DNA of 63,253 nt from sequence record AP012531; one strand, 5' to 3'. The position numbers are program-made. The first letter of the stretch is position 1, and every line of letters begins with the position of its first letter. Below are positions 45,001 through 48,000 of this stretch, piece by piece. Origin of the DNA: Stx2-converting phage Stx2a_F422.

Positions 45001-48000
45001 CAGGAGGTGAGTATTGGAATACGGTTTTGCCATTTATAACAGAAATAACGTTAATGTTACGGGCGTGCTGACTCCAGTATTTTTCCTGGACAGATTTACA
45101 GCGGAGTCTGGCTCAAAGACGTACACTAATAAACCCGACGGGAAATCATTGCAGGCTGTATGTTGTTTATTTCCCTGGAATAATGTATTTGCGGATCGGA
45201 AAGTACCGAAGATAACCATTAATGACAATACGGTGACGTGGTCGAATCTTGAGCAGGGTATGGGATCTTATATTTATACATTCTGGGGATAAGTGTTATG
45301 TACGGTTTGAGCATTATGAAGCCGGATGGCAGCGTATGGATAAGTCCAGGTTTTACGCCGCAGTGTCTGATCAACAAAGGCACCATACCGGCGACTGAAA
45401 AGTCTTTTTTTAAAACATCAATCCCGTCAGGCAAAAGTTGTTTTTTCTTTATCAGAACAGAGAAGAAGGCCGATGTCATGTACACGCATGAACAGATTGA
45501 TGGATATCATGCACTAAGGCTTCATGTAATTGTCAGGGGAACGAACCCTGGTGTTACGACGGTTTATGCTTTCGCGAATATGGTTACTCCACCTTCTGAG
45601 TATGGTATCGCCATGTATAACCCGGACGGTGAGATGATTTATCATGGCGAAATGATGCTGCTTGACGCGAAGTTAATACCTGTTGATATCAAATTTGAAA
45701 AGGACCTTGGATATCCATGCGCAATCATGCCTGCACTGGTCGGGTATTATAACTGGAAAAGAACTCCTTATGATCGACCGATTTATACCACATCCACTGG
45801 TGCTACAGGAAATAAAATATATTCCTGTGAGCATTATTCCGGTGGTGCAACATGGGATATTCGAAAGCCGTATATAGATAAGGTCCTGGTTATTAATACA
45901 TCAGTATATGATTAGTTGAAGCGAGTCTTTAATATTCATTTAAAATGTCTAAAAAGATGTATTATTAAAAAGTTTAGCGTGTTATCTGAATACAGGATAT
46001 CTTAAATGAAGAGTATAGCAACACTGGTTGTGTGTGCAATCTCCGGGATTGCCTGTGTAAATTTATCTGCACATGCAGCAGAAGGAGAGCATACAATTTC
46101 TCTGGGGTATGCGCACTTTCAGTTTCCGGGACTGAAGGATTTTGTAAAGGATGCGACTGCTCATAACAGGGAGACTTTCAGTCATTTCGTCAACAGAAAC
46201 TACTTTTCTTCATTGGGCGAATATACAGATGGTCGGGTCAGTGGATATGAAGGCAAGGATAAAAATCCACAGGGCATTAATATCAGGTATCGCTACGAGA
46301 TAACGGATGATTTTGGCGTTATCACCTCTTTTACATGGACGCGTTCTCTCACTAACTCACAGACATTTATTGATGTGCAGTCAGCCGATCATACCAGGAA
46401 GATTAAGAATCCGGCAGCTTCTGCCAGAACGGATATCAGGGCGAATTACTGGAGTCTGTTAGCGGGGCCTTCATGGCGGGTTAATCAGTACATGAGTTTA
46501 TATGCGATGGCAGGGATGGGCGTTGCTAAAGTTAGCGCTGACCTGAAAATTAAGGACAATATTAACAGTAGTGGCGGATTTTCTGAAAGCAACAGCACGA
46601 AAAAAACCTCCCTTGCGTGGGCTGCAGGTGCACAGTTTAACCTGAATGAGAGTGTTACACTGGATGTGGCTTACGAAGGTTCCGGCTCTGGCGACTGGCG
46701 CACGAGTGGCGTTACTGCTGGCATTGGCCTGAAATTCTGACCTGTATCCGGTAACCGTTTACTACCCGCTGTGATGGCGGGTTTTTTATTGCCCGTACAG
46801 GGCAAAAACCGTAAATTATGCGTGGGTGCCTTTCGGCTGATGGCTGGAGGGTGAACCTGAAGGCCTGATGTGGAAAGGCCCCGAGTCAACTTAACGTTAA
46901 CCCGAGGCCCTAACACTTCGTACCTTAAGCAAGTAGAAGGTTAGCGCCTCTCTGTAAAAGGAGTCAAGCGCTATGTCGCAAAAATCGCTTATCACCGTCA
47001 CAATTTGCATGACGGTTATCTTCACCATCTGGATGTTGCACGGTTCACTGTGTGAGTTCCGGCTGAATTTGTGGGGAGCGGAGTTTGCGGCGTTCTTACA
47101 GTGTAAGCAGTAGGAAAACCGCGACGGGGACGAGAGTCCCCGTCAACTGGTTGCTGAGGTTCAGCCGATATGGCACCCGTTTCAGGTGAGAGAATGAACG
47201 ATAAAATTCTCTGGTATATGCAGCGTGTTGTGAGAAATTCCCGCAACCCTGAATTTATGAATGAAGTTAAAGACGCCTGCCTTAAAAAGCAGGCGTTTTG
47301 TTTTGAGGCACCTGATGGCTTTTTGGTGCTGCGTTCTGTGCTCAGTGCTGATGGTATCCCTTATGTTCTGGTGTTGCTGGGCGTGTGTACGGGGAGTAAC
47401 AGCGTTGAGCGTTACCTGCCGGAGGTGAAGACATTAACCCATCTGGCTGGCGGACGCTGGGCTGAGTTCCATACGGCAAGGCGGGGATTTATCCGGCTGG
47501 GAAAACGACTGGGCTTTGAGCGAATGCCGGATGATGAGGATGGCTTCATGGTGTTCAGGATAGCGGTCTGACTGCTACAGTTTTCATCATTGTGTTTAAA
47601 CCAACATTGTAATTCACATTCTGACCCTGCTCCGGCAGGGTTTTTTGTTATCCAGGGGGCCATTATGGGTGGAAGTAAAGGCGGTGGTGATACCAAAGTA
47701 AAACCAACAGCAGCGCAAATAGCACAGGAAGAAGTGGCCTGGAAAGGGTGGCAGGATTACAAAAATATCCTCCGCCCGGCTGAAGATAACTTCATGGAAA
47801 AGGTCGATGACCTGAACAGTGAGCAGCAGTACGACAATATTGCTGGCACCACAAATCTGGGGTATCAGAAACAGTTTGGCGAAGCACGGAAGGAGCTTGC
47901 GGGTAATCTTGCTCAGTCCGGCGTTGACCCATCCAGTGGTCGTTTTAATGCGGTAATGAATGCGAACCAGAGTGACCAGGTAACCGGGCAGATTGACACA

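What the first reader, a model, noticed from the sequence alone, without database searches (positions are those of the whole stretch)
46800..47150. Unannotated hok-like type I toxin ORF downstream of lom
A 46-aa ORF with a strong RBS encodes a transmembrane segment followed by LCEFR...GAEFAAF, the Hok/Gef signature, and is followed by an 8-bp-stem hairpin. It is absent from the ORF track because it is under 60 aa. With the canonical hok at 59773-59928 the prophage would carry two membrane-toxin genes; the leader region here could hold the antisense regulator.
Basis: partly seen in the sequence, partly recalled or inferred. Interest (0 to 1): 0.7.

Follow-up and report, generated by a model that had tools for sequence, protein, structure and literature searches.

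The report
Second Hok toxin gene, already catalogued
The 46-codon ORF after lom in this Shiga-toxin phage is a real Hok-family membrane-toxin gene inside a complete hok-type RNA cassette, but RefSeq already annotates it and a 2025-26 preprint has catalogued this exact peptide and reports it toxic, so only its apparent lack of the usual 'mok' leader frame may be new.

Summary
ORF 46973-47113 (+) encodes a 46-aa peptide that passes Pfam HOK_GEF (33.2 bits, cutoff 22). It is under purifying selection (median dN/dS 0.26).

It sits in a 375-bp cassette (46804-47178) with hok hallmarks:
- a -10 box, 6 nt, then GGGUGCC at +1, as in K-12 hokB, hokC and hokE;
- a 5'/3' fold-back (GGGUGCC:GGCACCC), closed in 27 of 27 homologues;
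- a predicted ~60-nt antisense RNA with conserved promoter boxes and a hairpin far stronger on the minus strand (-17.1 vs -4.3 kcal/mol).

It is not new. The window is a 933W/Sp5-type Stx2 phage. RefSeq calls the ORF WP_000078907.1, 'Hok/Gef family protein'. The same peptide is entry 72_1589 in Escalera-Maurer et al. (bioRxiv 2025.08.07.668861); it was cloned and, by exclusion from the three non-toxic constructs, was toxic. The cassette occurs in about a third of complete E. coli genomes, in at least four settings.

Departures from the R1 paradigm:
- there is no mok frame;
- the 'terminator' hairpin has no U-tract and matches the 3' stabiliser of processed hok mRNA.

The published hokW-sokW is the other locus (59773-59928, minus). 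The study that characterised it does not mention this one.

The parts
46764..46788 (+). Intrinsic terminator of lom: stem ACCCGC..GCGGGT followed by TTTTTTAT. It isolates the cassette from lom transcription.
   Evidence: Terminator scan; sequence.
46789..46817 (+). Predicted promoter of the hok-like mRNA: -35 TTGCCC (46789-94), 17-nt spacer, -10 TAAATT (46812-17). The +1 lies 7 nt downstream.
   Evidence: The -10 (TAnAnT) and its distance to GGGTGCC are conserved in 17 of the 18 aligned homologues (S. diarizonae has a rearranged 5' region and L004 is masked with N), although the upstream flanks are unrelated. K-12 hokC, hokE and hokB show the same layout: -10, 6 nt, GGGTGC. It matches 8 of 12 consensus positions, so the generic scan missed it. 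Inferred, not mapped.
46824..47178 (+). Predicted full-length hok-type mRNA, about 355 nt. This is the conserved mobile cassette proper.
   Evidence: The Rfam sok/hok-leader model aligns end to end from 46824. BLAST homology to other contexts stops at 46804 and 47178. The MFE is -155.4 kcal/mol, z -6.6, with the 5' and 3' ends paired.
46824..46840 (+). tac element: the 5' end GGGUGCC (46824-30) plus CGGCUGA (46834-40). It pairs either with fbi (inactive form) or with 46872-46882 (the tac stem of the processed form).
46872..46882 (+). GGAAAGGCCCC, the 3' arm of the tac stem in the processed mRNA.
   Evidence: The RNAalifold consensus picks this stem. It is 92% paired, with compensatory UA->CG in 8 sequences and CG->GC in 3.
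46866..46931 (-). Predicted Sok-like antisense RNA of about 60 nt: a 12-nt single-stranded 5' tail (UGCUUAAGGUAC), a 14-16-bp terminator hairpin (46911->46875), then UUUCC.
   Evidence: Fold energy -32.5 kcal/mol, z -6.1. The hairpin scores -17.1 kcal/mol on the minus strand against -4.3 on the plus strand, and the minus strand is more stable in 21 of 21 homologues. The ends are inferred.
46938..46967 (-). Predicted promoter of the antisense RNA: -35 TTGACT (46967->46962), 18-nt spacer, -10 TAACCT (46943->46938).
   Evidence: AGGTTAGCGCCTC is nearly invariant in the 18 aligned loci; only S. diarizonae differs, by one base. In the added Salmonella loci the -10 is TAACCT or TATCCT, and the -35 is TTGCTC, TTGACT or TTTACT at 17-18 nt. 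Not found by the generic scan. Inferred.
46904..46950 (+). Target hairpin: GAGGC...GCCUC closing CUAAC/GUUAG, CUUC/GAAG and UAC/GUA, with loop CCUUAAGCA. The loop is complementary to the 5' tail of the antisense RNA. This is where mok starts in hokW, but here there is no start codon and there are three stops.
46943..46972 (+). SD-sequestering hairpin: AGCGC:GCGCU plus CUCU:GGAG. It shares GCCUC with the base of the target hairpin, so the two structures exclude each other.
   Evidence: It appears in the full-length MFE. The outer helix is 99% paired in 21 loci, but covariation does not exceed the shuffles.
46959..46963 (+). Shine-Dalgarno AGGAG of the toxin ORF.
   Evidence: Sequence. The probability of being unpaired is 0.01-0.02 in full-length folds.
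46973..47113 (+). Toxin ORF, 46 aa, Hok/Gef family. It equals WP_000078907.1 and entry 72_1589.
47123..47144 (+). 9-bp GC-rich hairpin with a GAGA loop, with no U-tract on the + strand. It is the likely 3' protective stem of the processed, translatable mRNA, not a terminator.
   Evidence: Four of its pairs show compensatory double changes in 17 homologues. In R1, the equivalent last stem-loop of Tr-hok protects against 3' exonucleases (PMC9841398).
47161..47178 (+). fbi (fold-back inhibition) element: UCAGCCG (47161-67) and GGCACCC (47172-78), complementary to the mRNA 5' end.
   Evidence: The duplex scores -30.7 kcal/mol, z -4.7. All 27 full-length homologues fold with the 5' and 3' ends closed.

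Best explanation
The ORF is a functional Hok-family inner-membrane toxin gene. It is carried on a self-contained ~375-bp hok/sok-type type I toxin-antitoxin cassette that rides as a 'moron' in the late region of a 933W/Sp5-type Stx2 phage.

Proposed mechanism, by analogy with R1 hok/sok:
1. A constitutive promoter makes a ~355-nt mRNA. Its 5' end (GGGUGCC...CGGCUGA) pairs with its 3' end (UCAGCCG...GGCACCC). In this closed form a local hairpin buries the toxin's SD, so the mRNA is inert.
2. Slow 3' trimming back to the GC-rich hairpin at 47123-47144 removes fbi. The 5' end then refolds into a tac stem and a target hairpin forms.
3. A short-lived ~60-nt antisense RNA is made from the opposite strand of the leader. 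It uses its single-stranded 5' tail to seize the loop of that hairpin, forms a duplex, and silences or destroys the mRNA.
4. When antisense synthesis stops, through loss of the element or prophage induction, the toxin is made and damages the inner membrane.

Unlike R1 hok/sok and the neighbouring hokW, there is no mok leader frame. The antisense RNA must therefore act by mRNA decay and/or by steering the anti-SD (CCUCUC) onto the SD, not by blocking mok translation.

Shown here: family membership, purifying selection, the conserved fold-back, the conserved and strand-asymmetric antisense hairpin, the absence of mok, and the mobility of the cassette. Shown by others: toxicity of the peptide. 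Inferred: transcript ends, existence of the antisense RNA, 3' processing, and the biological role.
For: Protein. Pfam HOK_GEF scores 33.2 bits against 22 and PHROG 251 scores 85.8 bits. The peptide is 45% identical to HokA and 37% to HokW. A 46-aa subfamily is conserved in Escherichia, Shigella, Salmonella and Citrobacter. Median dN/dS is 0.26 over 269 pairs. Three alleles differ from the window at 17-24% of synonymous sites and at no non-synonymous site.

Toxicity. The identical peptide, 72_1589, was cloned as LRP157. In that study 42 of 45 constructs were toxic, and the three non-toxic ones are other entries.

RNA. The Rfam hok-leader ('sok') model aligns end to end at 46824-46986, 35.6 bits, E 3e-6. 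The full-length fold scores -155.4 kcal/mol, z -6.6, with the ends paired. The 5'/3' duplex scores -22.8 to -34.2 kcal/mol, z -3.3 to -4.7, in 26 loci, and 27 of 27 full-length MFEs are closed. The tac stem and target hairpin are 86.4% paired against 36-55% for slid controls, and their covariation score exceeds all 500 shuffles. The 3' hairpin shows compensatory changes.

Antisense. The -10 (TAACCT or TATCCT) and -35 boxes are conserved. The hairpin scores -17.1 kcal/mol on the minus strand against -4.3 on the plus strand and is asymmetric in 21 of 21 loci. The predicted RNA has the Sok layout of a 5' tail plus a long stem.

Autonomy. Homology ends exactly at 46804 and 47178. The cassette occurs after lom in Stx phages, after ogr in P2-like prophages, near ykgM, and between J and a tail-fibre gene.

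Promoter. K-12 hokC, hokE and hokB share the layout of -10, 6 nt, then GGGTGC at +1.
Against: There is no direct evidence here that either transcript exists, or where its ends are.

Both promoters fall below the threshold of the generic scan, which found 0 sites. The Rfam hit is below the gathering score (35.6 against 59).

[quoted passage not shown] How a ribosome reaches the SD is therefore unexplained. The predicted SD accessibility rises only from 0.02 to 0.08 on truncation, averaged over 27 homologues.

The SD-sequestering hairpin shows no covariation beyond the shuffles. A test that swapped 5' and 3' arms between loci did not favour cognate partners at the single-locus level.

No canonical terminator follows fbi. 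The antisense terminator has only three U residues.
Confidence: 0.75

Rival explanations
1. The toxin gene is real but is not a toxin-antitoxin pair. No antisense RNA is made, and the peptide is simply a phage late or moron membrane protein, for example a lysis helper. It would be expressed by read-through of the late operon or from its own promoter, and held in check only by the mRNA fold-back.
For: The gene lies on the same strand as the late genes and lom. The antisense promoter is weak by consensus and was missed by the scan. The antisense terminator has a short U-run. HokW in the same phage assists lysis on induction (PMC8621323).
Against: A strong terminator separates the ORF from lom. 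The same cassette works as a unit in four unrelated contexts. The leader hairpin is built with G-U pairs that fold only on the minus strand, in 21 of 21 loci; that is hard to explain without an antisense transcript. The antisense -10 region is nearly invariant.
Confidence: 0.12
2. The locus is a decaying hok relic. Loss of mok has made the toxin untranslatable, so the cassette is silent baggage.
For: No mok frame is present. Stops lie in all three frames upstream of the ATG in the window. The SD is predicted to stay largely paired in every state. The Rfam score is below gathering. Many chromosomal hok loci in K-12 are known to be inactivated (own knowledge: Pedersen & Gerdes 1999).
Against: Median dN/dS is 0.26. 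All 28 copies examined (27 loci, one with two copies) have an intact ORF of 46-47 codons with no frameshift or premature stop. The promoter, tac, fbi and 3' hairpin are all conserved, with compensatory changes. The cassette is present in 1750 of 5426 complete E. coli genomes, and still spreading between prophage types. The lack of mok is shared by the whole subfamily, including divergent Salmonella copies, so it is an old and stable state.
Confidence: 0.08
3. It is a chance ORF with a fortuitous hydrophobic stretch and an LCE motif.
For: The ORF is short, and such ORFs are common (50 ORFs of at least 20 aa in 3 kb).
Against: It gives significant Pfam and PHROG hits, has 56 database homologues, is under purifying selection, and the peptide is reported toxic.
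Confidence: 0.01

Closest known systems
Hok cluster 72 (entries 72_1589 and 72_1621) in Escalera-Maurer et al., bioRxiv 10.1101/2025.08.07.668861; equals RefSeq WP_000078907.1, 'Hok/Gef family protein'
   Same: The amino-acid sequence is identical to 72_1589. That entry is listed as belonging to a high-abundance cluster, and was cloned and tested for toxicity. RefSeq annotates the same ORF at the same place after lom.
   Different: Nothing differs at the protein level. That study explicitly left Mok, Sok and the mRNA structure unanalysed. The cassette anatomy and the lack of mok described here are therefore additions, not contradictions.
hokW-sokW of Sakai prophage Sp5 (Takada et al. 2021, PMC8621323); window 59773-59928, minus strand
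   Same: It is in the same phage and the same toxin family. The mRNA plan is the same: -10, GGGUGC at +1, the AAAGCCCC and GAGGC blocks, an AAGGAG SD and a 3' fbi-like GCAUCC. HokW is an inner-membrane toxin whose antisense RNA disappears on mitomycin C induction.
   Different: The proteins share only 37% identity over 35 residues. hokW has a 70-codon mok frame and a full Rfam sok match of 113.5 bits. The Sok-target regions differ, so cross-regulation is unlikely. The 46-aa gene is not mentioned in that paper.
hok/sok (parB) of plasmid R1
   Same: Shared features are a small Hok toxin, the tac/fbi fold-back, activation by 3' processing back to a protective stem-loop, and an antisense RNA with a single-stranded 5' tail and a long terminator stem encoded in the leader. 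The antisense -35 lies next to the toxin SD on the opposite strand (overlapping it in most homologues), and the -10 is TAACCT or TATCCT (own knowledge of R1).
   Different: There is no mok. The toxin has 46 aa rather than 52. The C-terminus ends in ..FLQCKQ, with Cys where R1 has Tyr. No separate terminator hairpin follows fbi. The setting is a prophage, not a plasmid.
HokA (E. coli K-12; NCBIfam NF007290)
   Same: It is the closest characterised protein: 45% identity, with shared MxQK...W M...SLCE...E(L/F)AAFL.C, and it is the best NCBIfam hit.
   Different: The score of 38.4 bits is far below the equivalog cutoff of 89. The ORF is not HokA. It falls in a separate 60%-identity cluster, 72 rather than 93.

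Membership tests
Hok/Gef toxin protein family (Pfam PF01848) | Profile match above the curated gathering score | tested here: met
   33.2 bits against a cutoff of 22, E 4e-8, covering profile positions 6-42 of 42. PHROG 251 scores 85.8 bits.
Hok/Gef toxin protein family (Pfam PF01848) | Conserved residues of the Hok logo: M1, C16, T18, L30-C31-E32 and E41, plus C or Y at position 48 | tested here: met
   M1, C12, T14, L26-C27-E28, E37 and C44 map to these logo positions in the survey's own alignment of this peptide.
Hok/Gef toxin protein family (Pfam PF01848) | About 50 aa, with one N-terminal hydrophobic helix and a polar C-terminal part | tested here: met
   The peptide has 46 aa. Residues 6-22 (LITVTICMTVIFTIWML) are hydrophobic and the C-terminal 24 residues are polar or charged, read directly from the sequence. 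No topology predictor was run.
Hok/Gef toxin protein family (Pfam PF01848) | Kills or arrests cells when expressed | not testable with these tools
   Reported by others. The identical peptide, 72_1589 (LRP157), was among 45 constructs tested. 42 were toxic, and the three exceptions are other entries. This is inferred by exclusion from the text; the figure itself is not held.
hok/sok-type type I toxin-antitoxin locus (R1 parB paradigm) | Long-range 5'/3' fold-back (tac/fbi) that closes the full-length mRNA | tested here: met
   In silico only. The duplex scores -30.7 kcal/mol, z -4.7. The MFE closes the ends in the window and in 27 of 27 homologues. Covariation is clear only for the alternative tac stem, not at the single-locus level for fbi.
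hok/sok-type type I toxin-antitoxin locus (R1 parB paradigm) | Cis-encoded antisense RNA (Sok) in the leader, with its own promoter and terminator | tested here: inconclusive
   Supporting: conserved -35 and -10 boxes; a hairpin of -17.1 kcal/mol on the minus strand against -4.3 on the plus strand, asymmetric in 21 of 21 loci; and a Sok-like fold, z -6.1. Against: the promoter scan found nothing, and there are no transcript data.
hok/sok-type type I toxin-antitoxin locus (R1 parB paradigm) | An overlapping mok leader frame whose translation is needed for hok translation | tested here: not met
   In the window and in 9 other loci of 22, no ATG, GTG or TTG ORF (also no CTG, ATT, ATC or ATA ORF in the window) starts in the leader and reaches the SD. 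The leader ORFs found elsewhere differ in start, frame and length. Salmonella copies lack even the GAUGUGG motif.
hok/sok-type type I toxin-antitoxin locus (R1 parB paradigm) | Match to Rfam RF01794 (the sok / hok-leader covariance model) at the gathering score | tested here: not met
   35.6 bits against a gathering score of 59. The alignment covers model positions 1-157 in full, E 3e-6 in an 801-nt search. hokW scores 113.5 bits.
hok/sok-type type I toxin-antitoxin locus (R1 parB paradigm) | 3' exonucleolytic processing to a translatable truncated mRNA, and RNase III cleavage of the duplex | not testable with these tools
   Only the predicted refolding on truncation could be examined, together with a conserved, covarying 3' stem at the expected place.
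HokA equivalog (NCBIfam NF007290) | Score above the equivalog cutoff | tested here: not met
   38.4 bits against a cutoff of 89.

The most novel reading that the evidence does not exclude
The 46-aa Hok subfamily (cluster 72) would be a stable mok-less branch of hok/sok. The antisense RNA would control the toxin without any leader-peptide coupling. It would do so by triggering decay and by freeing the shared GCCUC(UC) segment from the target hairpin, so that this segment clamps the toxin's own SD.

In Sp5 and 933W the gene would also be a second, partly redundant lysis-assisting or prophage-addiction toxin. That would explain why deleting hokW-sokW alone only halves phage release.
Probability: 0.35. 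Interest if true: 0.45.

Novelty: already known. Interest (0 to 1): 0.25.

Why it matters
For annotation, the gap between lom and L0129 in the reference 933W, VT2-Sakai and many other Stx-phage GenBank records hides a real toxin gene that RefSeq and PHROG-based pipelines already call.

For biology, Sp5/933W-type Stx2 phages carry two hok cassettes. The preprint reports that only 3.5% of hok-carrying phages carry two. The one functional study deleted only hokW-sokW and saw a modest twofold drop in phage release. It does not mention the second gene, which could mask part of the phenotype.

For RNA regulation, a widespread hok subfamily keeps tac/fbi and the antisense module but has no mok. It offers a natural test of whether leader-peptide coupling is dispensable in this paradigm. 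That point is an in-silico inference and of specialist interest only.

Tried and rejected
1. A mok-like leader ORF starting at the invariant GAUGUGG (GTG 46870..46944, 24 aa, preceded by GAAGG). Rejected. Its end and frame vary among E. coli copies because of indels, and Salmonella copies replace the motif with GAAAAGCG. The invariance is better explained by the tac-stem partner and the antisense terminator tail.

2. A cognate-versus-swapped 5'/3' arm test for tac/fbi covariation. It was uninformative at the single-locus level, because the invariant GGGUGCC:GGCACCC core dominates. Only a weak E. coli-versus-Salmonella block trend appeared.

3. The anti-SD switch as a strong on/off device. Folding gives the right direction (full-length 0.02, truncated 0.08, truncated with Sok bound 0.01 unpaired), but the change is too small to count as support. 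The hairpin shows no covariation beyond the shuffles.

4. The 9-bp hairpin as the mRNA terminator. Rejected, because there is no U-tract on the + strand. It reads as terminator-like only on the minus strand.

5. Cross-regulation with sokW. The target regions differ too much.

6. A search for expression data in an EHEC ciprofloxacin transcriptome supplement. Nothing was held.

7. Searches for earlier mention of mok-less hok loci, or of hok next to ogr. Nothing was found in the searchable library. Whether cluster 72 is in T1TAdb could not be established, because the relevant rows of Table S1 are not held.

8. The genome-contig scan returned only 7 loci. Three sit on contigs labelled Xanthomonas, Planococcaceae and Vagococcus and look like enterobacterial contamination.
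Full report
**What is there.** The window is a 933W/Sp5-type Stx2 phage. The 460 bases around the finding are 100% identical to 933W, VT2-Sakai and dozens of other Stx phages. Rfam finds the lambda cIII thermoregulator, AsxR, STnc100 and three tRNAs elsewhere in the window. Downstream of an Ail/Lom gene (46006-46740; Pfam Ail_Lom, 113 bits) and its terminator (46764-46782 plus a T-run) lies the ORF 46973..47113 (+). It encodes 46 aa, MSQKSLITVTICMTVIFTIWMLHGSLCEFRLNLWGAEFAAFLQCKQ, and has an AGGAG 9 nt before the ATG. The hairpin after it has a 9-bp stem (47123-47144) with a GAGA loop.

**Is it Hok?** Yes.
- Pfam HOK_GEF scores 33.2 bits against a gathering score of 22, and PHROG 251 ('MokW-like host killing') scores 85.8 bits.
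- The best NCBIfam hit is HokA, but well below the equivalog cutoff (38.4 against 89). The peptide is 45% identical to HokA and 37% to HokW.
- A database search returns 56 relatives, nearly all of 46 aa, from Escherichia, Shigella and Salmonella. All that carry a name are called 'Hok/Gef family protein'.
- Across 24 distinct 141-nt alleles the median dN/dS is 0.26. Three alleles differ from the window at 17-24% of synonymous sites and at no non-synonymous site.
- All 28 copies I read (27 loci, one with two copies) have an intact ORF of 46-47 codons.

The ORF is therefore a maintained coding gene.

**Is it new?** No.
- RefSeq/PGAP annotates the ORF as WP_000078907.1, 'Hok/Gef family protein', at exactly this place after lom. 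A 2025 phage record calls it 'MokW-like host killing'.
- Only older GenBank records (933W AF125520, Stx2 phage I) leave the gap empty.
- A 2006 paper already counted 13 hok genes in O157:H7.
- The identical peptide is entry 72_1589 in Escalera-Maurer et al. (bioRxiv 10.1101/2025.08.07.668861). It is listed there as belonging to a high-abundance cluster and was cloned as LRP157 for arabinose-induced toxicity assays.
- The text of that preprint says 42 of 45 constructs were toxic and names the three that were not: 19_179, 60_1482 and 69_1540. By exclusion, 72_1589 was toxic.
- That study states that it did not analyse Mok, Sok or the mRNA structure.

**The other hok.** The 'canonical hok' at 59773-59928 is on the minus strand. 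It has a 70-codon in-frame mok and a full Rfam sok match of 113.5 bits. At 51 aa it is the published HokW of Sp5 (PMC8621323). That paper does not mention a second hok in Sp5. A tblastn search finds only these two hok genes in the window.

**Anatomy of the cassette.** Distant BLAST shows that homology to other genomic settings begins at 46804 and ends at 47178 (query positions 22-396). This 375-bp unit occurs in 1750 of 5426 complete E. coli genomes, with up to 9 copies per genome. It occurs in at least four contexts:
- after lom in Stx phages;
- after ogr at the end of P2-like prophages;
- near ykgM and traT remnants;
- between J and a tail-fibre gene.

It also occurs in Salmonella, E. albertii and Citrobacter, sometimes in tandem.

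Within the unit I see the following elements.

1. *Sense promoter.* It consists of -35 TTGCCC (46789-94), 17 nt, and -10 TAAATT (46812-17), then 6 nt and GGGTGCC. The -10 (TAnAnT) and this spacing are conserved although the upstream flanks are unrelated. K-12 hokC, hokE and hokB have the same arrangement of -10, 6 nt, GGGTGC. The Rfam 'sok' model, which is in fact the hok mRNA leader strand, aligns from its first position at 46824 to its last at 46986 (35.6 bits, E 3e-6, below the gathering score of 59).

2. *Fold-back.* The 5' end GGGUGCC..CGGCUGA (46824-40) is complementary to UCAGCCG..GGCACCC (47161-78). The 359-nt RNA folds to -155.4 kcal/mol (z -6.6) with its ends paired. In 26 loci the 5'/3' duplex scores -22.8 to -34.2 kcal/mol, z -3.3 to -4.7 against shuffled 3' arms. 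In 27 of 27 distinct homologues the full-length MFE is closed. Swapping arms between loci did not single out the cognate partners. The support is therefore conservation of complementarity, not clean covariation.

3. *Processed form.* After removal of the 3' tail, the 5' end is predicted to pair with GGAAAGGCCCC (46872-82, the tac stem), and a hairpin GAGGC...GCCUC (46904-50) forms. On 21 loci these helices are 86.4% paired, against 36-55% for slid controls. Compensatory changes occur in the tac stem (UA->CG in 8 sequences, CG->GC in 3, CG->UA in 3), and the covariation score exceeds all 500 shuffles.

4. *The 3' hairpin (47123-44).* It has compensatory double changes in four pairs but no U-tract on the + strand. 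It matches the last stem-loop of truncated R1 hok mRNA, which protects against 3' exonucleases (PMC9841398). It is not a terminator.

5. *Antisense gene.* On the minus strand lie -35 TTGACT (46967->62), 18 nt, and -10 TAACCT (46943->38). AGGTTAGCGCCTC is nearly invariant in the 18 aligned loci; only S. diarizonae differs, by one base. Salmonella copies carry TAACCT or TATCCT. From about 46931 the RNA would have a 12-nt single-stranded tail, UGCUUAAGGUAC, complementary to the loop of the target hairpin. A 14-16-bp hairpin and UUUCC follow (-32.5 kcal/mol, z -6.1). That hairpin contains G-U pairs, which become A-C mismatches on the sense strand: -17.1 kcal/mol on the minus strand against -4.3 on the plus strand. 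The minus strand is more stable in 21 of 21 loci. This asymmetry is the best evidence here that an antisense transcript is made. Its existence is still an inference.

**What is missing.** There is no mok. In the window, stops lie in all three frames just upstream of the toxin ATG (TAA 46926, TAG 46934, TAG 46942, TAA 46955). No start codon of any usual kind opens a frame that reaches the SD. Of 22 loci, 10 have no such ORF, and the ORFs in the others differ in start, frame and length. Where hokW has its mok ATG, this locus has ACUUCGUACCUUAAG. In R1, mok translation up to the hok SD is required for Hok synthesis, so this is a real departure from the paradigm. I found no paper in the searchable library that notes it.

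**How translation might start.** A local hairpin (AGCGC:GCGCU plus CUCU:GGAG, 46943-72) buries the SD. It shares GCCUC with the base of the target hairpin, which suggests a switch: target hairpin formed, SD freer; antisense bound, anti-SD released onto the SD.

Folding gives the right direction but a small effect. In the window the SD-unpaired probability is 0.19 full-length, 0.38 truncated and 0.19 with the antisense site blocked. The means over 27 loci are 0.02, 0.08 and 0.01. The hairpin shows no covariation beyond the shuffles. I therefore treat this as a hypothesis. How the ribosome reaches the SD without mok remains unexplained. Antisense-triggered decay alone may be sufficient.

**Other gaps.** No canonical terminator follows fbi. 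The conserved unit ends with GGCACCC followed by a T-rich stretch in every context, and the next ORF starts 17-25 nt later.

**Function.** This cannot be decided here. By analogy there are three candidates: prophage addiction; help with lysis on induction, as shown for hokW; or exclusion of other phages, as reported for R1 hok/sok (cited). The cassette's repeated placement at prophage ends and in moron slots fits any of them.

**Verdict.** The gene is already known: it is annotated, catalogued and reported toxic. The added value here is the cassette anatomy, the strand-asymmetry argument for the antisense RNA, the absence of mok across the subfamily, and the point that the hokW study overlooked a second hok in the same phage. 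Interest is low to moderate.

Noticed in passing
window 47170-47571 (+): The ORF after the cassette (933W L0129, 133 aa, PHROG 610, unknown function) is annotated as starting at ATG 47170, which lies inside the fbi element. The PHROG profile aligns only from residue 9. ATG 47194, preceded by GGTGAGAG, looks like the real start.
   Followed up: partly
window 59773-60097 (-): This is the published hokW-sokW locus of Sp5. HokW has 51 aa within a 70-codon in-frame mok ORF (59773..59985). The Rfam sok match is at 59923-60097 (113.5 bits).
   Followed up: yes
window 47122-47145 (-): Read on the minus strand, the 3' hairpin of the cassette is followed by CGGTTTTCCT and scores as terminator-like. It could stop antisense read-through coming from the downstream genes.
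   Followed up: no
L021 1354-2200 and L022 1350-2200 (Salmonella enterica): Two copies of the cassette lie in tandem about 490 nt apart, encoding slightly different 46-aa toxins.
   Followed up: no
L023 1300-1720 (Salmonella enterica): This copy has unrelated sequence in place of the promoter and tac element, but keeps an intact ORF, antisense region and fbi. It is either a 5'-truncated cassette or one with a different promoter.
   Followed up: no
L003, L004, L006 (genome contigs): Near-identical enterobacterial hok cassettes sit on contigs labelled Xanthomonas pisi, a Planococcaceae MAG and Vagococcus sp. These are most likely contaminating E. coli or Salmonella DNA in those assemblies.
   Followed up: no
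window 9336-9452 (+); 62719-62807 (-); 24090-24349: Other Rfam matches in the window are an ALIL pseudoknot (the frameshift signal of an IS3-family element, so an IS sits in the early region), sRNA-Xcc1 near the right end, and the adjacent STnc100 and AsxR pair next to the tRNA cluster at 22433-22681.
   Followed up: no
window 46870-46944 (+): GAUGUGGAAAGGCCCC is invariant in the E. coli copies and opens a 24-codon GTG ORF in the window. The ORF is not conserved. The invariance is explained by the tac-stem partner and the tail of the antisense terminator.
   Followed up: yes
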